From Akkermansia sp. (GTDB lineage Bacteria > Verrucomicrobiota > Verrucomicrobiia > Verrucomicrobiales > Akkermansiaceae): a stretch of 37,969 bases of DNA. The stretch spans positions 1 to 37,969 of the forward strand of contig JAFZGH010000105.1 of the NCBI GenBank assembly GCA_017555465.1, read 5' to 3'. A program made the translations under genes and the position numbers. Below are positions 20,115 to 37,321 of the stretch, piece after piece (position 1 is the stretch's first letter; each line of letters starts with the position of its first letter). A model generated the notes under the pieces. That model made no database searches and had not been told where the DNA came from. It saw only the letters and a list, made by a program, of their open reading frames with translations.

Positions 20115-20162
20115 AAAGCCCCGACCATAATGCCAACCCCGGCAAAATGGCCGGGGCTTTTT
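20115..20162. terminator. Terminator ending the lysis module
   Basis: AAAGCCCCGACCAT...ATGGCCGGGGCTTTTT with internal TGCC/GGCA stem. Confidence 0.75.
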
Positions 20163-20175
20163 GTGCGCTTTGCGA

Positions 20176-20193
20176 TATACCACAAACGGTATA
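20176..20193. promoter_or_regulatory. Operator copy 1 (TATACCACAAACGGTATA)
   Basis: Imperfect palindrome, 16/18 identical to the operator core at 20245-20262. Confidence 0.7.
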
Positions 20194-20236
20194 AAACTAC
20201 ACAAAACAAGGCCCGAAACTTTGTACATTCTGCGAA

Positions 20237-20264
20237 TTGTAAATTATACCATAAATGGTATAAT
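20237..20264 (+). promoter_or_regulatory. Sigma-A promoter overlapped by a perfect palindromic operator
   Basis: TTGTAA-16bp-TATAAT with extended TG; ATTATACCAT-AA-ATGGTATAAT inverted repeat (20243-20264) covers the spacer and -10. Confidence 0.85.
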
Positions 20265-20313
20265 AGACCCATACAGAACGACACCCCACCACACAACACC
20301 AGGAGGAAACAAC

Positions 20314-20577
20314 ATGAAAAAGCATTTTTACAAGCCCTGCAAGGTGATCGTAGAACGGTACAGCCGCTGCAAGTATTTCCACCCCGAGGACGGCGAGCGC
20401 ATCACCTACGAAAACGTGGAGGCATTCGAGGTGGTCCACGGCGAGGCAGCTGCCCAGCTGGAGGCCGAAATGGATGGCACCACCCTGGACGACTTCAACG
20501 AATACCTGGTGCTGTATTTCACCAACGGCGAAACCGCAACATTCCGCAACTCCTACGCAGACCTTTTCAAATTCTAA
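20314..20577 (+). CDS. Hypothetical 87-aa protein, first gene of accessory operon (candidate anti-defence)
   Basis: RBS AGGAGG; acidic C-terminal half; no recognised family. Confidence 0.8.
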   Translation: MKKHFYKPCKVIVERYSRCKYFHPEDGERITYENVEAFEVVHGEAAAQLEAEMDGTTLDDFNEYLVLYFTNGETATFRNSYADLFKF

Positions 20578-20578
20578 C

Positions 20579-20626
20579 CACCAGGGCCGGCAACCCCGGC
20601 CCGCCAATCAAAAGGAGCACGACATG
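20579..20626 (+). repeat. Intergenic hairpin+RBS unit, copy 1
   Basis: CACCAGGGCCGGCAACCCCGGCCC-N8-AAAGGAGCAC-N-ACATG. Confidence 0.9.
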
Positions 20627-20896
20627 AAAAAAAGACAATGGTTTATATTCCAGGTTTTCGACGGCGGCCAGGACCTGCTGGACCAGCCTATATGGCACTG
20701 GGAGGTCACCCTCCAGTACCACACAAAGGCGGAGGTATTCAAGACATACAACCGCTACAGAGGCCACCGAAAAGTTAGAGAAGTTTTCACCCTGCGGCAG
20801 TTTGTGGAGGCCGTCGGCATCAAGACCGCCCAGCGAGTGCTGGAGGACAACCGGGGCCGCATCCTGGCCGACAAGGAAAGATATTCCGAACAATAA
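20624..20896 (+). CDS. Hypothetical 90-aa protein
   Basis: RBS AAGGAG within repeat unit; MKKRQWFIFQV... Confidence 0.8.
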   Translation: MKKRQWFIFQVFDGGQDLLDQPIWHWEVTLQYHTKAEVFKTYNRYRGHRKVREVFTLRQFVEAVGIKTAQRVLEDNRGRILADKERYSEQ

Positions 20897-20897
20897 A

Positions 20898-20945
20898 CAC
20901 CAGGGCCGGCAACCCCGGCCCACACATAGAAAGGAGCACAACATG
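20898..20945 (+). repeat. Intergenic hairpin+RBS unit, copy 2
   Basis: 24-nt exact repeat of 20579-20602, plus the same AAAGGAGCAC at the same spacing. Confidence 0.9.
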
Positions 20946-21629
20946 GCAAGTATCAGAAATGCAGCACAGTGGGTCCTGGACGATTGCCGGGACGGCATCG
21001 GCTGGGTAGCAATCTGGAAAGAGGGCCGCAGCTGGGAAAGCGAGCGCATTTACGGCGTAGACTTTGACGCGCCTACCTACACCGCAACGATTGACGACGC
21101 CGACGAGCTGGAGCGGCTGCAGGCTATCCTGGCCATTGACCCCCATGCAATCATTGTAAACAGCTATTACCACAACCTGGGCGATACCGAGTGCATGACC
21201 CGCGACACCCTGGCCGACGCCCTCCGCTGGCAGTACGAACTGCAGAACGCCACCGTGGCCAACTTCCTGGAGAATATTGTGCAGGATGCACAGGAGCCCG
21301 CCGACCATGAGGAGCAGATCGCAGCTGCAGACCTGGGCAACATGCCCAAAAACGACGAGGAGGACGAGGACGAGCGGGTGGCCGCATGGGGCCGCCAGGA
21401 GCGCAGCGTCACCCTGACAAATGACCAGTGGAACCGCCTGGTTTGCTACCTGCATATGAGCACCAAGTACCGAGAGGGAGAACGGGACGCATGGCAGGAA
21501 CTGGCCCAGGAGAAGAACCCGGACGGCACCCCGGTATTTAAGAACGCGGCCAAAAATGCAGCATACTGGCAGGAGGCCATTGACGACCTGGCCGCCATGC
21601 TGCCCAAGCTGGACGGGCTGGGGGCGTAA
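20943..21629 (+). CDS. Hypothetical acidic two-domain protein (228 aa)
   Basis: RBS within repeat; D/E-rich linker (NDEEDEDE) separates two regions. Confidence 0.8.
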   Translation: MASIRNAAQWVLDDCRDGIGWVAIWKEGRSWESERIYGVDFDAPTYTATIDDADELERLQAILAIDPHAIIVNSYYHNLGDTECMTRDTLADALRWQYELQNATVANFLENIVQDAQEPADHEEQIAAADLGNMPKNDEEDEDERVAAWGRQERSVTLTNDQWNRLVCYLHMSTKYREGERDAWQELAQEKNPDGTPVFKNAAKNAAYWQEAIDDLAAMLPKLDGLGA

Positions 21630-21631
21630 CT

Positions 21632-22024
21632 ATGGAAAAGAACCACAGACAGCGATTGATCGAGGAGGGGCTGTACGAGCCCCTCACACCCAACGATATT
21701 GCAGAGCGCAAAGAGCTGCTGGAGCGCCGGGCCCGTGGCGAGAAAATCCAGGACCCGCCCATATACTGCGTGTACCGCGCTGACGACCCCTGGACCCATA
21801 TCGACACCAGCCTGGGCAAGAAATGCCAGGACGCGGAACTGATCGCGGACCACCTGCGGGGCTATGAGGCGCAAAGCCTGTGCAGCCGGCTTTGCATTTA
21901 CGACAAGCAGCAGCCGCCCAGGACCCGTCCCTGGCTGCCTCCGCTGGATATGTACCGCATTTCAAAAATGGACGACTGGGACGCCTGGGAGGCCCAGCAC
22001 GCCCAGCTCAGAATGGAGGTGTAA
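21632..22024 (+). CDS. Hypothetical 130-aa protein
   Basis: Tightly packed in operon. Confidence 0.7.
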   Translation: MEKNHRQRLIEEGLYEPLTPNDIAERKELLERRARGEKIQDPPIYCVYRADDPWTHIDTSLGKKCQDAELIADHLRGYEAQSLCSRLCIYDKQQPPRTRPWLPPLDMYRISKMDDWDAWEAQHAQLRMEV

Positions 22025-22028
22025 CAGT

Positions 22029-22172
22029 ATGGACGTAGAGGAGATCATGGAGCAGGTTTGCGACCGCTGCCATTATCCGTATATCATTGACGACCAGGAG
22101 CAGCTGGACGAACGCTGCGAGGCGTGCCCCATTGAGGCCATGCTGAAACAGCTGGCAAATAAGGAGGAGTAA
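22029..22172 (+). CDS. Hypothetical 47-aa acidic Cys-containing protein
   Basis: RBS GGAGGT; MDVEEIMEQVCDRCHYP...RCEACP. Confidence 0.7.
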   Translation: MDVEEIMEQVCDRCHYPYIIDDQEQLDERCEACPIEAMLKQLANKEE

Positions 22173-22175
22173 ACC

Positions 22176-22358
22176 ATGGGAGAGAAACTGAAACAGGCCC
22201 GGCAGCGTGCCGGCATGACCCAGGCGCAGCTGGCTGAGGCCATAGGCTGCAAACAGAAAGACGTGAGCCGCTGGGAGGCCGGCCTGATCGAGCCCGGCGT
22301 GCTGACCGTCAAGAAAATGGCCCAGGCCCTGGGCTGCAGCATGGACGACCTGGTGTAA
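22176..22358 (+). CDS. Stand-alone XRE/HTH_3 regulator (Aca-like position)
   Basis: LKQARQRAGMTQAQLAEAIG...VSRWEAG..EP; last gene of the operon. Confidence 0.9.
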   Translation: MGEKLKQARQRAGMTQAQLAEAIGCKQKDVSRWEAGLIEPGVLTVKKMAQALGCSMDDLV

Positions 22359-22860: not shown

Positions 22861-24438
22861 TTACAACCGCAGCGAGATATGCAGCTCAAAGGGGCTGACC
22901 TCACCACCGCGCAGACGTTTCCTGTTTTCTCTATCACTGGGCACGCTGGAAAATTCGACGCGCTCCACGATTGCCTTTACCACTCTGTTTTTCTCCTCTA
23001 TGGTGGCGGCATCATCCCGCAGAATATCAATAGCAGCCTTTAAGGCCACGACCCGCTCTGCGTAGTCCACGGACTGCGGCAGGGCGCTTTTTGCTTTGTA
23101 GATCGCTGCCTGGCATTCCTCCATTTTTTCGCGCAGCGCTTTGTTGCGGCGCTCAAAAACGTCCTGCGGGTAATTTGGATTAGTTTCAAGCAGATCATAC
23201 TGCCGCTCCTCCTGGGCCCTGTATTCCTCCATTTGTTTCTCCAGTTTGACCAGGAGGCGCTGCTGTATCTTCCTGGCGTCGCCGTCGCCGTTTGTGACCT
23301 TTAGCTCCAGCGCCGGCAGCTCTGCCTCCTCCAGGGAAACCACCAGGGCGTCCACCAGGGCGCCGGCCTTTACGGATTTATAGCACGGCGGCCTCTGTTT
23401 GCATGTGTATCGGTCCTCTGCATGTTTGTACGGGTGCAGGGCCATGACCTGCCCGCAGCCTTTGCAAAACAGCACGCTGGCCAGCGGATTCTTTAAGTGG
23501 GTAAATTGATTTATGCGCGGATTTTGCGCCACGCGCTCCTGGGCAGCCTCCCACAGGGCCCGGTCTACGATTGCCGTGTGTTTACCCTCTGCTATGATAA
23601 CGTCCTCCACAGGCTGCGCCAGGCGCCTCTTGACAATTTTGCCGTTTTCAAGTACCTGGGTAAATTTCTTTTGATTAAATGCCACATAGCCGGCATAGTG
23701 CGGATTGCGCAGCATCACGCGCACGCTGTCCTTTTTCCATTTGTCAATGCGGGCCGGTTTTATGCCCAGCTCATTGAGGCGGCAAGCTATCTGGTAAGGC
23801 GTGGCCCCGTCGTTCACATACATGTCATACGCGAGCTGCACGGCCGGCGCCTGGTCCTCGTTTATTTCCAGCGTGTGGTCCTTGCCTATTTTTATTTTGT
23901 TATAACCATATGGCGGGTGGTTACCGATAAAGCAGCCGCGCTTTACAGCCGCAATCCGACCCCGGAAAAGTATTTCCTTTGTGTATTCCAGGAATTCGCT
24001 GGAGCGCAGCAATTCGTCTTTGAAGAATTTGCGCTCCATTTTGTTTTCCAGGTCATAGGTCATATACGGCGTGGCGACGACGCTATGGGAAAAGCGGAAA
24101 CTGTCAATTATTTTGGAGCAGTCGGCCAGATCACCGCGGGAGAGCCGGCTGGGCTCCATGACAATGACGCCGGCCACGGCCGGGTCCTCTATGCGGGCCA
24201 GCACTTTCTTTATTTCCTCCCGGGCGTCGATACTTTCACCGCTGACAATTTCCCGGTATATATTTTCCTCTGGAATTGTACAGCCCAGCTCCCGCTCTGC
24301 CCACTCCTGCAGCTGCGTCTCATGTTTGGCCAGGACCTCCTCCACCGTTTCGTTTGGGTCATCCTGCCGTGATTTACGCAAGTAAAGCAACCATATTTTG
24401 TATCGTGATTCATTGCCCAGCTTTTCACTGAGTGTCAT
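22861..24438 (-). CDS. int: Large serine recombinase (integrase)
   Basis: YLRKS catalytic motif, SRLSRG, PPYGY recombinase domain, LFCKGCG..C..C zinc ribbon, coiled coil. Confidence 0.95.
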   Translation of the reverse strand: MTLSEKLGNESRYKIWLLYLRKSRQDDPNETVEEVLAKHETQLQEWAERELGCTIPEENIYREIVSGESIDAREEIKKVLARIEDPAVAGVIVMEPSRLSRGDLADCSKIIDSFRFSHSVVATPYMTYDLENKMERKFFKDELLRSSEFLEYTKEILFRGRIAAVKRGCFIGNHPPYGYNKIKIGKDHTLEINEDQAPAVQLAYDMYVNDGATPYQIACRLNELGIKPARIDKWKKDSVRVMLRNPHYAGYVAFNQKKFTQVLENGKIVKRRLAQPVEDVIIAEGKHTAIVDRALWEAAQERVAQNPRINQFTHLKNPLASVLFCKGCGQVMALHPYKHAEDRYTCKQRPPCYKSVKAGALVDALVVSLEEAELPALELKVTNGDGDARKIQQRLLVKLEKQMEEYRAQEERQYDLLETNPNYPQDVFERRNKALREKMEECQAAIYKAKSALPQSVDYAERVVALKAAIDILRDDAATIEEKNRVVKAIVERVEFSSVPSDRENRKRLRGGEVSPFELHISLRL

Positions 24439-24561
24439 AAAAAATCATCCCCTTGTTTTCGTCTTTTTTCGCTGTGCTGCTGTGTTACATTAAAGTGGCA
24501 ACATTTACATGTGGCGCCAGATAATTTCCTGACTGTATAATGTTTTCAGAAAGTTAAAAAA

Positions 24562-24577
24562 CAGAACACACGTTCTG
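24562..24577. promoter_or_regulatory. LexA/DinR (Cheo) SOS box
   Basis: CAGAAC-ACAC-GTTCTG matches Bacillota GAAC-N4-GTTC; lies 20 nt downstream of TATAAT (24536-24541). Confidence 0.75.
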
Positions 24578-24611
24578 GCCGCCCCGGAATTTATGAAGTG
24601 AGGTCATTGCC

Positions 24612-24722
24612 ATGGAAGAAACACTAAAAACCAAGCTGCACCAATACATAGAAAGGCTGGACCTGAGCCAGCTACATATTGCAATCGGATTTTTCAAAAC
24701 TCTTTTCGGCTTTGACGACTGA
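24612..24722 (+). CDS. 36-aa putative SOS-induced antirepressor (not in ORF track)
   Basis: RBS GAGGT then ATG; MEETLKTKLHQYIERLDLSQLHIAIGFFKTLFGFDD; convergent on and overlapping the cI 3' end. Confidence 0.6.
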   Translation: MEETLKTKLHQYIERLDLSQLHIAIGFFKTLFGFDD

Positions 24723-25100
24723 CGCGCCCGCGTCAGTCTTTTTTTGTTTTGTAGACATTGACGCAATGACCAGCCGCACCGCGTAACGGTCCGCCTCACT
24801 CAGCTGCATGTATTCCCGGGCCATTTCCAGGGCGTCCTGGTCCATGATCACCTGGGCCGCCAGGGCGCCCATGTCCTGCAGCTCCTCCGCCGGCTTTTCG
24901 TCCCATCCCATCAAATGCCCAGGCGTTACGCCAAGCGCATCGGCAAAGGCGGCGATTTTCTTCTGTGGCAGGTCCCTGATACCCAGCTCTATTTTGTTTA
25001 TGGCCGACTTTGTTTTATAGCCGACACGGCTTGCCAGCTCCTCCTGGGTAATTCCTGCCCGTTTCCTGGCCGCTGCTATGTTCTTTCCTACGTTTGCCAT
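24672..25100 (-). CDS. CI-like XRE repressor without S24 peptidase domain
   Basis: RBS GGAGGTG, ATG 25100; IAAARKRAGITQEELASRVGY..KSAINKIE.G HTH; short helical C-terminus; divergent from cro. Confidence 0.9.
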   Translation of the reverse strand: MANVGKNIAAARKRAGITQEELASRVGYKTKSAINKIELGIRDLPQKKIAAFADALGVTPGHLMGWDEKPAEELQDMGALAAQVIMDQDALEMAREYMQLSEADRYAVRLVIASMSTKQKKTDAGASVVKAEKSFEKSDCNM

Positions 25101-25119: not shown

Positions 25120-25148
25120 ATCATAGCACTGGGTAGCCGTTGTGTCAA
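25120..25148 (-). promoter_or_regulatory. Lysogenic promoter for cI
   Basis: Minus strand TTGACA-17bp-TATGAT. Confidence 0.85.
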
Positions 25149-25176
25149 TTTTTTACGCATTTTTCAGAAAAAAAGG

Positions 25177-25205
25177 TTGACAAAGTGGCCACGCGATATT
25201 ATATT
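25177..25205 (+). promoter_or_regulatory. Early lytic promoter for cro operon
   Basis: TTGACA-17bp-TATATT. Confidence 0.85.
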
Positions 25206-25217
25206 GAAATAGCAAGC

Positions 25218-25236
25218 GGTAGCCAAAACGGCTACC
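25218..25236. promoter_or_regulatory. Switch operator GGTAGCC-AAAAC-GGCTACC
   Basis: Perfect 7-bp arms; degenerate copies at 25133-25149 and 25176-25192 overlap the two -35 boxes. Confidence 0.85.
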
Positions 25237-25266: not shown

Positions 25267-25485
25267 ATGACCAACACCAGCCTGCTGGAGCTGCGCATCC
25301 AGAAATCTGGCCTCAAAAAAAGCTATATTGCAAAAGAATTAGGCATTACGCTGAGAACGCTGGCCAATAAGATTGCAAACCGCTGCGAATTTAAGGCAAG
25401 CGAAATCGACAAGCTGTGCAAACTGCTGGGCATTACTGACCCCGCAGAAAAGGAGGCTATTTTTTTTGCTACAAAAGTAGCCTAA
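25267..25485 (+). CDS. Cro-like HTH regulator
   Basis: SGLKKSYIAKELGIT..TL.NKI....EFKASEI; first gene of the divergent lytic operon. Confidence 0.88.
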   Translation: MTNTSLLELRIQKSGLKKSYIAKELGITLRTLANKIANRCEFKASEIDKLCKLLGITDPAEKEAIFFATKVA

Positions 25486-25493
25486 ACGGCTAC
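25477..25493. promoter_or_regulatory. Distal operator GTAGCC-TAAAC-GGCTAC at cro stop
   Basis: 16/17 identical to the 25219-25235 operator core. Confidence 0.8.
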
Positions 25494-35793: not shown

Positions 35794-36168
35794 ATGCTAA
35801 AAATAAACCAGCATGTAATGTACGACATACAGCCCTGCCCGTTTGCGGGAAACTGCGAAAAGGAGACACCGGCCTGCAGCTTTGAGAAAAGCGGCACCTG
35901 CCCCGTGATCGCAAAGCCAAAGGAAGAACCCGAAAAGCTATACGACCCGCTGGAGCCGGTGGCCGTCACCCTGACAAGGGAGCAATGGCACAGCGTAATG
36001 TGGATCCTGGAGTATTACAAGTACGTTTGCGTCAATAAGTCAATCGAGTACGCAGACTGGCCAGAGCATGCGCGGCCGACTGAGAGTGCAGCAGAGCACA
36101 AAGCAGAGGCCAAGAAAATGGAGGCAATCCTGGCCAAGATCGAGCAGGACTATTACGGCGAACAATAA
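35794..36168 (+). CDS. Hypothetical protein
   Basis: Cys-rich N-terminus plus VTLTREQW helical module. Confidence 0.65.
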   Translation: MLKINQHVMYDIQPCPFAGNCEKETPACSFEKSGTCPVIAKPKEEPEKLYDPLEPVAVTLTREQWHSVMWILEYYKYVCVNKSIEYADWPEHARPTESAAEHKAEAKKMEAILAKIEQDYYGEQ

Positions 36169-36170
36169 AA

Positions 36171-36208
36171 CGAGCCGCTGCAGGGCAACCTGTGGCGGCT
36201 TTTATTTT
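36171..36208 (+). terminator. Terminator ending the early/middle operon
   Basis: AGCCGCTGCAGG-GCAA-CCTGTGGCGGCT followed by TTTATTTT. Confidence 0.75.
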
Positions 36209-36301
36209 GCCCACATGAGTGCAGACCCGGCAGCAGCCAGGCCGTGGAACAATGGAGAGATACAACAAAGGGGAAATAAACTGAAAAGGAATGATTTACC
36301 C

Positions 36302-37321
36302 ATGAAACTATTACAAGGCGATTGCATGGAGCTGCTGCCAGAAATCCCGGACAAGTCGGTGGACCTGGTGCTTTGTGACCTGCCATACGGCACGACAGAA
36401 TGCAAGTGGGACCATGTGCTGCCCATGGACCAGCTCTGGAAAGAGTACAGGCGCCTATTGAGGCCCAACGGGGTGGCGGCTCTATTCGCTGCCCAACCAT
36501 TTACCACGGCCCTGATCAACAGCAACCGCCCGGCGTTTAGGTACTGCTGGTATTGGCTGAAAAACATGGCGACCGGCTTTGCCTTTGCCAGATACCAACC
36601 CATGAGAAAAATTGAGGAGGTGGCAATATTCGTCTGCAACGTGCCAGGCAAAGACAACACCGAGCACCACAAAGCGCTGCGGGCCTATCTGCAGGCCGAG
36701 CTGAAAGCAAGCGGCCACACCCGCGCCAGCATAAACAAAATACTGGGCAATACAATGGCCTCCCACTATTTCACCAACGGGAGCCAGTTTGCTATACCAC
36801 CACGGGAACAATGGGAAAAGCTGCAGCAGGAAACCGGGTGCTTTTTCAGATCGTGGGACGACGTGCGGGAAGAATACAAGGCAGAACTGGGTGGCGGCAA
36901 TGGCGGCGGGCCACAGATATACAACCCGCAGGGCCTGCAGATCATAAGCGACCCGAAACCAAAGCGCCGCATGGCAATCAAAGACGACGCAATATACAGC
37001 ATGGACACACTAATGCAGGAATACACGCCGAAATATAAAGGCTGGCCCGTGAACGTCCTGCAATTCAACTCAGAGCGCGGCCTGCATCCCACACAGAAAC
37101 CCGTCCCGCTGCTGGAATACCTGGTAAAGACCTACACACACGAGGGCGACACCGTGCTGGACAACTGCATGGGCAGCGGCAGCACTGGCGTGGCCTGCCT
37201 GAGAACCGGCCGCCATTTCATAGGCATGGAAAAAGACCCGCACTATTTTCAGACCGCAAAGGAGCGGCTGGAAAAGGAGGCAATACAAAAGCCTGACCAG
37301 GTGGCGGGCTGTAATAGATAA
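36302..37321 (+). CDS. Orphan N6-A/N4-C DNA methyltransferase (beta order)
   Basis: LLQGDCME, motif IV DLPY, HPTQKP, motif I CMGSGST; internal insertion of ~70 aa. Confidence 0.92.
   Translation: MKLLQGDCMELLPEIPDKSVDLVLCDLPYGTTECKWDHVLPMDQLWKEYRRLLRPNGVAALFAAQPFTTALINSNRPAFRYCWYWLKNMATGFAFARYQPMRKIEEVAIFVCNVPGKDNTEHHKALRAYLQAELKASGHTRASINKILGNTMASHYFTNGSQFAIPPREQWEKLQQETGCFFRSWDDVREEYKAELGGGNGGGPQIYNPQGLQIISDPKPKRRMAIKDDAIYSMDTLMQEYTPKYKGWPVNVLQFNSERGLHPTQKPVPLLEYLVKTYTHEGDTVLDNCMGSGSTGVACLRTGRHFIGMEKDPHYFQTAKERLEKEAIQKPDQVAGCNR

What the first reader, a model, noticed from the sequence alone, without database searches (positions are those of the whole stretch)
24536..25100. SOS-box-controlled 36-aa mini-ORF converging on a non-cleavable cI: candidate SinI-like antirepressor induction switch
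Seen: the cI (24672-25100) has only an HTH plus a short helical tail. It has no S24 autoprotease domain, and I see no ImmA-type metalloprotease anywhere in the genome. On the opposite strand, between int and cI, are TATAAT (24536), a perfect CAGAAC-N4-GTTCTG palindrome (24562-24577), an RBS (GAGGT) and an unannotated ORF 24612-24722 (MEETLKTKLHQYIERLDLSQLHIAIGFFKTLFGFDD) that overlaps the cI 3' end by 51 nt. Known: GAAC-N4-GTTC is the Bacillota LexA/DinR box; LexA-controlled antirepressors induce Salmonella Gifsy prophages; B. subtilis SinI inactivates SinR by mimicking its oligomerisation helices. Inference: the peptide's helix-turn-helix pattern (L..YI..L...QL.....F...L) parallels the cI tail (M.REYMQLSEADRYAV..VI..M). 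Host LexA cleavage would then release a peptide, and an antisense transcript, that disables cI. This would be a compact induction switch that gene callers miss.
Basis: partly seen in the sequence, partly recalled or inferred. Interest (0 to 1): 0.85.

Follow-up and report, generated by a model that had tools for sequence, protein, structure and literature searches.

The report
LexA-gated decoy peptide beside phage repressor
A temperate phage, probably of gut Clostridia, carries a conserved 36-residue gene behind a LexA-type (DNA-damage) box that faces a repressor with no self-cutting domain; the peptide likely copies the repressor's pairing helices and wakes the prophage, a design already shown in Bacillus arbitrium phages but here without their peptide-signalling genes.

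Summary
The 36-codon ORF behaves as a real gene: pN/pS is 0.35 outside and 0.13 inside the cI overlap, while cI's own frame there gives 2.1. It has its own terminator, and its family spans 131 protein clusters. The GAAC-N4-GTTC core is conserved with variable spacers and matches the box upstream of lexA in the likely host family (11 of 21). Across 84 repressor clusters, box plus convergent ORF occurs in 10 of 47 HTH-plus-helical-tail repressors and 0 of 37 S24 or ImmA-linked ones. Deep profiles align the peptide to the repressor's last two helices (hhalign 79%). Best reading: a LexA-repressed antirepressor (about 70%). The closest known case is AimX-AimC-AimL of Bacillus phi106 (bioRxiv 2025), with the same layout; here aimR/aimP are absent. 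The antisense idea is weak: the overlap looks like an accidental cI read-through. Binding, expression and the host are untested; the genome bin holding the contig lacks LexA and is probably a mis-bin. The scan noted this design before on other DNA, including gut Clostridia phages. Verdict: new variant of a known kind.

The parts
22861..24438 (-). Large serine recombinase (integrase), 525 aa, divergent from the mini-gene
   Evidence: Pfam Resolvase, Recombinase, Zn_ribbon_recom
24536..24541 (+). -10 hexamer TATAAT of the inferred mini-gene promoter; no consensus -35 in the window (relative L301 has TTGACA-18-TATCCT)
24543..24552 (+). TTTTC(A/T)GAA element just after the -10, conserved in the close clade, binder unknown (possibly a weak second LexA half-site; CodY not supported)
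24562..24577 (.). SOS (LexA/DinR-type) box CAGAAC-ACAC-GTTCTG, core 24564-24575, between the -10 and the RBS
   Evidence: core perfect in 8 of 12 aligned relatives plus L300 and L301, spacer variable; GAAC-N4-GTTY upstream of 11 of 21 lexA genes of the likely host family, 0.29 expected; motif cited in PMC4234289
24600..24604 (+). Ribosome-binding site GAGGT, 7 nt before ATG
   Evidence: sequence; GAGG conserved in the close clade
24612..24722 (+). 36-aa two-helix peptide, inferred antirepressor (decoy of the cI C-terminal helical hairpin)
   Evidence: pN/pS 0.35 and 0.13; 131 clusters; AF2 helices 2-15 and 18-32, pLDDT 94; hhalign to repressor tails 79%
24717..24745 (+). Intrinsic terminator of the mini-gene (9-bp stem plus U7)
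   Evidence: stem conserved in relatives
24672..25100 (-). cI-type XRE repressor, 142 aa: HTH 8-61, helices 71-86, 88-98, 102-122; no S24 domain
24672..24737 (-). Last ~21 cI codons: likely passive read-through across the terminator and the peptide's 3' end (many relatives stop at ...KKD)
   Evidence: cI-frame pN/pS 2.08 over the last 16 codons; pLDDT <50; variable ends among 120 homologues
25120..25205 (.). Divergent sigma70-type promoters for cI (TTGACA-17-TATGAT, -) and cro (TTGACA-17-TATATT, +), with GTAGCC-like half-sites between their hexamers
25219..25235 (.). Putative cI operator GTAGCC-N5-GGCTAC (second copy 25477-25493), unrelated to the SOS box
   Evidence: role inferred
25267..25485 (+). 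Cro-like HTH protein (72 aa) heading the early lytic operon

Best explanation
The mini-ORF is a conserved protein-coding gene that likely acts as a LexA-repressed antirepressor of the neighbouring repressor, which has no self-cleavage domain. Inferred sequence of events: in the lysogen, host LexA sits on GAAC-ACAC-GTTC between the -10 and the RBS and keeps the gene off. DNA damage triggers LexA cleavage, and a short transcript ending at the 24717-24745 terminator makes the 36-aa helical hairpin. The hairpin would take the place of the partner subunit on cI's C-terminal helices (about residues 90-117), so cI loses oligomerisation, leaves its GTAGCC-N5-GGCTAC operators, and the cro/early operon fires. 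Shown here: the anatomy, coding selection, conservation, the box matching lexA-upstream motifs, the distribution across repressor classes, and the profile similarity. Inferred: LexA binding, expression, the heterodimer and induction.
For: Coding selection in 8 sequences: pN/pS 0.35 (non-overlap) and 0.13 (overlap), against 1.02 and 1.17 in shifted frames and 1.24, 0.48, 1.25 in antisense frames. 131 clusters at 50% identity, 125 of them <=60 aa. Box core kept while spacer and flanks vary; same motif upstream of 11 of 21 lexA genes in the family of the MAG that holds the nearest phage relative, including that MAG's own lexA. Box plus convergent ORF in 10 of 47 HTH-plus-tail clusters vs 0 of 37 S24/ImmA clusters (Fisher p=0.002); convergent RBS-ORF in 26 of 47 vs 1 of 37. 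Deep peptide profile aligns to the last two helices of 22 repressor tails: probability 79%, score 22.3, vs 10.9 reversed and a maximum of 11.8 in 40 column shuffles. Tied top fold match is the C-terminal domain of the HTH protein CapH (7T5W; Z 4.8, rmsd 0.9 A over 32 residues; weak for a hairpin). Peptide identity tracks tail identity (Spearman 0.87) but not HTH identity (0.18). Experimental precedent with the same layout: phi106 AimX/AimC (bioRxiv 10.1101/2025.11.23.689978).
Against: The genome bin holding the contig (G000, 95.5% complete) has no LexA DNA-binding domain, and its genus has only weak hits. The nearest cI relative in named genomes (L300) also lies in a MAG of a non-Bacillota genus. 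The mis-binning argument is inferential. The window promoter lacks a -35. The shallow 13-sequence profiles did not align (hhalign 0.75%). 16 of the 26 ORF-positive clusters have no box within 1 mismatch, and about 4 of the 26 ORFs look spurious. The survey criteria were set after viewing, and clusters are related, so the p-values overstate. Tail-peptide correlation is also expected from physical linkage alone. The palindrome is followed by a T-run on the cI strand.
Confidence: 0.7

Rival explanations
1. The gene is SOS-induced, but the peptide acts on something other than this cI, such as another prophage's repressor, the integrase or a host regulator, or it stabilises cI rather than inactivating it.
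For: No direct binding evidence exists. Helical hairpins are generic: Z<5, with unrelated proteins tied at the top. Gifsy antirepressors act in trans on non-cognate repressors (PMC3121763 abstract).
Against: The peptide stays next to and co-varies with the tail of its own cI. The module is absent where the repressor already has an S24 or ImmA route. The phage has no other detectable induction route among 63 ORFs.
Confidence: 0.12
2. The switch works mainly through RNA: convergent, LexA-controlled transcription silences cI by antisense pairing or polymerase collision, and the peptide is secondary.
For: The transcript would overlap the last ~74 nt of the cI reading frame in the window. Read-through cI ends are common among the closest homologues (7 of 120 stop at KKD; that set is biased by ranking on the full-length query).
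Against: A strong terminator caps the RNA at 24745. Relatives keep peptide and box with no coding overlap (L013, L017, L018, L092, L301). The peptide frame is under purifying selection. In phi106 and phiW23, start-codon mutants lost function and recoding had no effect.
Confidence: 0.06
3. The peptide is an antirepressor, but the palindrome is not read by LexA in the real host. It could be a weak cI-strand terminator or the site of another regulator, for example if the host truly is the LexA-less genus of the bin.
For: G000 lacks LexA. The cI-strand hairpin is followed by T6. L300 lies in a MAG of a non-Bacillota genus.
Against: The hairpin is weak (-6.6 kcal/mol, z -0.1; mostly about -4 in relatives), with the 4+4 core invariant and flanks free. 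The contig is the bin's largest, a joint-top tetranucleotide outlier (2.2 vs median 0.88), with no tblastx match at E<=1e-8 to the rest of the bin and no repeat array found. Only 2 of 150 other genomes of the genus have a distant terminase (27-29%), whereas an Oscillospiraceae MAG holds 71-73% DNA matches to the head and tail genes. The lysis genes are Gram-positive in type (amidase-SH3, holin LLH).
Confidence: 0.1
4. The ORF is a chance reading frame in AT-rich intergenic DNA.
For: It is short, has no Pfam or PHROG match, and had no real match among 50,697 annotated phage records.
Against: Frame-specific purifying selection, conserved RBS, start and terminator, and a 131-cluster family.
Confidence: 0.02

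Closest known systems
AimX-AimC-AimL 'extended arbitrium' switch of Bacillus phage phi106 (also phiW23, Wbeta, BMBtp14, Waukesha92); bioRxiv 10.1101/2025.11.23.689978, parts 1-4 of 7 read plus a term search; supplements closed
   Same: Short HTH repressor (80-140 aa) with no auto-cleavage domain and a helical C-terminal oligomerisation domain; divergent cro-like gene; tiny helical ORF (29 aa in phi106) just downstream of a LexA site, convergent on and overlapping the repressor's 3' end; peptide proposed to occupy the partner C-domain position.
   Different: No aimR/aimP: the gene upstream of the box is a divergent serine integrase, so LexA would be the only identified input. The host is probably Clostridia, not Bacillus. 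The peptide has its own promoter and terminator. Sequence homology to AimX/AimC could not be tested (no sequences in the text read). The preprint surveyed Bacillus genomes and has no mention of 'Clostridi'.
SinI-SinR of Bacillus subtilis (PDB 1B0N; mechanism as described in the preprint's Discussion)
   Same: XRE HTH repressor with a two-helix tail, and a small stand-alone helical mimic. The cI model lists 1B0N_A among Foldseek hits (E 2e-3, largely HTH-driven).
   Different: SinI/SinR is a chromosomal biofilm switch; its genes are co-directional and under Spo0A control (recalled). No SinI Pfam match was found for the peptide.
LexA-controlled antirepressors GfoA/GfhA of Salmonella Gifsy prophages (PMC3121763, abstract and outline only); Tum of coliphage 186 and AntC of N15 (recalled)
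   Same: Non-cleaved repressor inactivated by a small LexA-regulated protein.
   Different: [quoted passage not shown] Here the gene is wedged against the repressor's 3' end and resembles its tail.
ImmR/ImmA-type (Peptidase_M78) and S24 autocleaving repressors of Bacillota prophages
   Same: Same XRE HTH family and the same position next to the integrase.
   Different: They use proteolysis. In this survey none of 37 such clusters had the box-plus-convergent-ORF module.

Membership tests
AimX-AimC-AimL extended arbitrium module | aimR and aimP genes upstream of aimX | tested here: not met
   No AimR/TPR-type match among the 63 window ORFs scanned; the neighbour is a divergent serine recombinase
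AimX-AimC-AimL extended arbitrium module | Short HTH repressor without auto-cleavage domain, with helical C-terminal domain | tested here: met
   HTH only in Pfam; AF2 tail helices
AimX-AimC-AimL extended arbitrium module | Divergent cro-like HTH gene ahead of early/replication genes | tested here: met
   25267-25485 HTH gene, divergent promoters, downstream RusA, replication initiator and IstB-like ATPase
AimX-AimC-AimL extended arbitrium module | Small helical ORF convergent on the repressor, downstream of a LexA site (phi106 type) | tested here: met
AimX-AimC-AimL extended arbitrium module | Peptide binds the repressor C-domain and blocks oligomerisation and DNA binding | not testable with these tools
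   Needs two-hybrid, SEC-MALS or EMSA
SinI antirepressor family | Sequence match to the SinI family profile | tested here: not met
   No SinI hit for the window peptide at E<=0.01 or for 13 aligned peptides at E<=1 in Pfam; that Pfam holds a SinI model is recalled
SinI antirepressor family | Two-helix fold that mimics the cognate repressor's oligomerisation helices | tested here: inconclusive
   AF2 two helices; deep profile match 79% but shallow profiles failed; fold search Z<5
LexA-regulated phage antirepressors (Gifsy/Tum type) | Repressor lacks a self-cleavage domain | tested here: met
LexA-regulated phage antirepressors (Gifsy/Tum type) | Host-type LexA operator in the antirepressor promoter | tested here: met
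   Motif matches lexA-upstream sites of the likely host family, 11 of 21 vs 0.29 expected; the host itself is inferred
LexA-regulated phage antirepressors (Gifsy/Tum type) | LexA binding and DNA-damage induction of the gene | not testable with these tools
   Needs EMSA and RT-qPCR with mitomycin C
ImmR/ImmA or S24 proteolytic switch | S24 domain in the repressor or an M78 metalloprotease gene | tested here: not met
   None among 63 ORFs

The most novel reading that the evidence does not exclude
This is a third, widespread and unnamed induction route of gut Clostridia prophages, mutually exclusive with self-cleavage and ImmA proteolysis: a portable cassette of repressor tail plus stand-alone tail-copy peptide plus LexA box, which is swapped onto different DNA-binding heads. 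HTH identity drops to 45-48% while tail and peptide stay at 72-90%. One peptide would therefore cross-induce heteroimmune prophages that share a tail, and box-less variants would plug the same decoy into other, unknown signals. It may be the ancestral switch that arbitrium later captured as AimX.
Probability: 0.35. Interest if true: 0.68.

Novelty: new variant of a known kind. Interest (0 to 1): 0.43.

Why it matters
Many gut Bacillota prophages encode short repressors with neither a cleavage domain nor an ImmA protease, so how they sense DNA damage is unexplained. This module gives a concrete, cheap-to-test answer and a sequence signature: -10, GAAC-N4-GTTY, RBS, a 30-50 aa helical ORF, a terminator, and a convergent XRE gene. 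The signature appeared in 10 of 80 viral loci picked only on the promoter pattern. If true, it extends the AimX/AimC mechanism beyond arbitrium and Bacillus, lets inducibility be predicted from sequence, and offers small inducers for studying gut prophages. The mechanism itself is not new, which limits the surprise.

Tried and rejected
Complex prediction of cI residues 68-122 with the peptide (13-row alignments): verdict 'no answer', scores 0.00 and 0.08 against a mark of 0.32; no evidence either way. RNA runs: no RNA holder was listed. CodY: a 15-mer at 24541-24555 matches the recalled CodY consensus with 3 mismatches (3 such sites in the window vs 0.41 expected) and is conserved in the close clade, but CodY was not found in any of 41 genomes of the likely host family, so the idea was dropped; the similar site at 25159-25173 is a generic T/A tract between divergent -35 boxes. 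The box as a cI operator: rejected, because the cI-cro region has a different palindrome and the box persists across HTH swaps. Shallow profile-profile comparison of peptide and cI: 0.75%. No meaningful match for the peptide in PDB sequences, Pfam or PHROGs, Foldseek PDB or the ESM Atlas (two unnamed clusters at 0.75); SinI was not among the 50 rows. Annotated phage collection: no real relative of the peptide or of the cI DNA; one unannotated faecal record matched the L186 peptide. The peptide profile hit only G168 among 201 genomes of its family, so the host family rests on one MAG. Literature: eight full-text searches listed no paper describing this module in Clostridia phages; subscription journals are mostly not covered and bioRxiv supplements were closed, so the preprint's supplementary files could hold such cases.

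Full report
Observation. The window is a 38-kb temperate siphophage running from small terminase to HNH nuclease, with a serine integrase at 22861-24438(-), an XRE repressor at 24672-25100(-) and a cro-like gene at 25267-25485(+). cI has only HTH matches, and none of the 63 ORFs scanned has an S24, M78/ImmA or AimR-type match. The -10 lacks a consensus -35, although relative L301 has TTGACA-18-TATCCT before the same box. A single perfect box in 38 kb is not remarkable by itself (33 in the other 2.01 Mb of the bin).

Is it a gene? In 8 distinct 36-codon copies (window, L001, L002, L008-L011, L300), pN/pS in the peptide frame is 0.35 over codons 2-20 and 0.13 over the overlapped codons. Control frames give 1.02 and 1.17 (shifted) and 1.24, 0.48 and 1.25 (antisense), and cI's own frame in the overlap gives 2.08. 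The shared DNA is therefore selected for the peptide, not for cI. Relatives L013, L017, L018, L092 and L301 end cI at ...KKD before the peptide and keep peptide, RBS and terminator. The window's extension follows from one base fewer in the A-run that is complementary to the terminator's U-tract (read from the sequence). cI ends vary among 120 homologues, and residues 121-142 are low-confidence in the model. A profile of 13 peptides finds 131 clusters at 50% identity among 1.84 billion representatives, 125 of them 60 aa or shorter.

Is the palindrome an SOS box? Among the 12 aligned relatives the GAAC-N4-GTTC core is perfect in 8, has one mismatch in L017, reads AAAC-N4-GTTT in L018 and is absent in L003 and L006; L300 and L301 are also perfect. 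Spacer and flanks vary freely and the hairpins are weak, which fits a protein-bound site better than a terminator. The motif is the B. subtilis and C. difficile LexA box (PMC4234289, passages read). In the family of the Oscillospiraceae MAG G168, which holds the nearest relative of the phage's structural genes (71-73% DNA) and a copy of the module (L301), GAAC-N4-GTTY lies upstream of 11 of 21 lexA genes, against 0.29 expected, including G168's own. The phage's own putative operator is a different palindrome, GTAGCC-N5-GGCTAC.

Host caveat. The bin G000 has RecA and a UmuD-like S24 protein but no LexA DNA-binding domain; its genus has only weak hits. The nearest cI relative in named genomes, L300, lies on a 33-kb contig of a MAG titled Akkermansia sp.. 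I read this as mis-binning by similar GC content. The window is the bin's largest contig, has no host flanks, is a joint-top tetranucleotide outlier and shares no tblastx match with the rest of the bin. Only 2 of 150 other genomes of the genus have even a distant terminase. The lysis genes are Gram-positive in type, and most of the 80 genome loci are titled as Clostridia. This is inference: the peptide profile hit 1 of 201 genomes in G168's family.

Distribution. Of 248 loci (window included) gathered with cI queries, 226 had a complete repressor and 350 nt downstream; they formed 84 clusters at 60% tail identity, one representative each. Pfam classed 21 as S24 repressors and 14 as followed by an M78 protease; 2 more have an HExxH neighbour, and 47 remain (38 of 55 downstream genes were scanned, and the 17 left out flank S24 repressors or peptide-bearing loci). 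A convergent 28-65 aa ORF with an RBS occurs in 26 of 47 vs 1 of 37, and ORF plus box (<=1 mismatch) in 10 of 47 vs 0 of 37 (p=7e-8 and 0.002). The criteria were set after viewing, clusters are related, and about four of the 26 ORFs look spurious, so these p-values overstate. From the other direction, 80 viral loci returned for the pattern TATAAT-N8-30-GAAC-N4-GTTC alone include 10 with a 30-40 aa ORF converging on an HTH repressor with a helical tail (9 by HMM, 1 by inspection).

Mimicry. AlphaFold2 gives the peptide two helices (2-15, 18-32; pLDDT 94) and the cI tail three (71-86, 88-98, 102-122). Shallow profiles did not align (0.75%). A 126-sequence peptide profile aligned to 22 repressor tails over 28 columns (peptide 6-33 to cI 90-117) at 79% probability and score 22.3, against 10.9 reversed and at most 11.8 in 40 column shuffles. 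In a search of 48,161 chains, the tied best match is the isolated C-terminal domain of CapH (Z 4.8, rmsd 0.9 A, 32 residues), with the TP901-1 CI dimerisation domain at Z 3.6; unrelated hairpins score alike, so this is a lead only. Across 13 loci, peptide identity follows tail identity (rho 0.87), not HTH identity (0.18); L001, L002, L010 and L011 have 45-48% HTH identity but 84-90% tail and 72-89% peptide identity to the window. Linkage alone could produce this, but it shows that heads are swapped onto a constant tail-peptide cassette.

Mechanism. Most likely (about 0.7), LexA represses the mini-gene; after DNA damage the peptide pairs with cI's tail, cI falls off its operators and the cro operon fires. 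LexA binding, expression, the heterodimer and induction are inferred. Rivals: another target or a stabilising role (0.12), a non-LexA reading of the box or a LexA-less host (0.10), antisense control (0.06), chance ORF (0.02).

Comparison with what is known. The preprint 10.1101/2025.11.23.689978 (parts 1-4 of 7 read, plus a term search; supplements closed) shows for phi106 a 29-aa AimX ORF just downstream of a LexA site, overlapping aimC by 30 bp. AimX forms a heterodimer with the short, non-cleaved AimC and blocks its oligomerisation and DNA binding; the antisense RNA is dispensable, and the authors draw the SinI/SinR analogy themselves. The present locus works like that module but is not a member, as aimR and aimP are absent. 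It is not shown to be a SinI family member either. Gifsy antirepressors share the logic but lie outside the immunity region (PMC3121763, abstract). Eight literature searches listed no description of the arbitrium-free Clostridia form. The scan's own notes record the same design on other DNA, including gut Clostridia phages (unchecked AI notes, seen after I had read the preprint), and none by sequence similarity to this locus.

Verdict. A real, conserved and probably widespread switch; a new variant of a known kind; interest 0.43.

Noticed in passing
L003:976-1060(-), L005, L006, L020, L027, L094: Same convergent small ORF with RBS but no GAAC-N4-GTTC box; L003 has a long inverted repeat (CCGTTAAAG-ACAC-CTTTAACGG) before the RBS. 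These may answer to another regulator.
   Followed up: no
L029:3071-3110(-), L063, L165: A shared GCCGACAG motif sits just downstream of the -10 of box-less convergent ORFs; the L029 cluster is very common (60 of 226 loci). Candidate unknown operator.
   Followed up: no
window 24543-24552: TTTTC(A/T)GAA element right after the -10, conserved in the close clade; CodY not found in the likely host family; in L013 and L300 it reads as an extra GAAC half-site.
   Followed up: partly
L184, L186, L197, L210, L223, L227, L245, L246 (viral loci): A large 'MDYKKEII..'-type family of 30-38 aa ORFs behind -10 plus SOS box, converging on XRE repressors; five or more share a ~65-nt conserved leader between box and start codon.
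   Followed up: partly
L009:952-1428 and many of P0008-P0116: A 14-residue tandem duplication of the cI tail turn-helix segment occurs in many homologues while the peptide is unchanged.
   Followed up: no
window 24739-24745: The U-tract of the peptide terminator is, on the cI strand, the A-run whose length decides whether cI stops at KKD or reads through; slippage could give two cI ends.
   Followed up: partly
window 20161-22358 (+): Accessory cluster between lysis genes and integrase: an LPD15 (polyvalent-protein-associated) domain protein, unknown ORFs and a 60-aa stand-alone XRE HTH gene (22176-22358).
   Followed up: no
G000:C300 and L300 (G167:C74): This phage and a related one both sit as free contigs in genome bins that do not look like their host (L300's MAG is titled Akkermansia sp.); likely repeated mis-binning by similar GC content.
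   Followed up: partly
window 36068-37321 (+): N6/N4 DNA methylase with an internal insertion of about 100 residues in the methylase domain.
   Followed up: no
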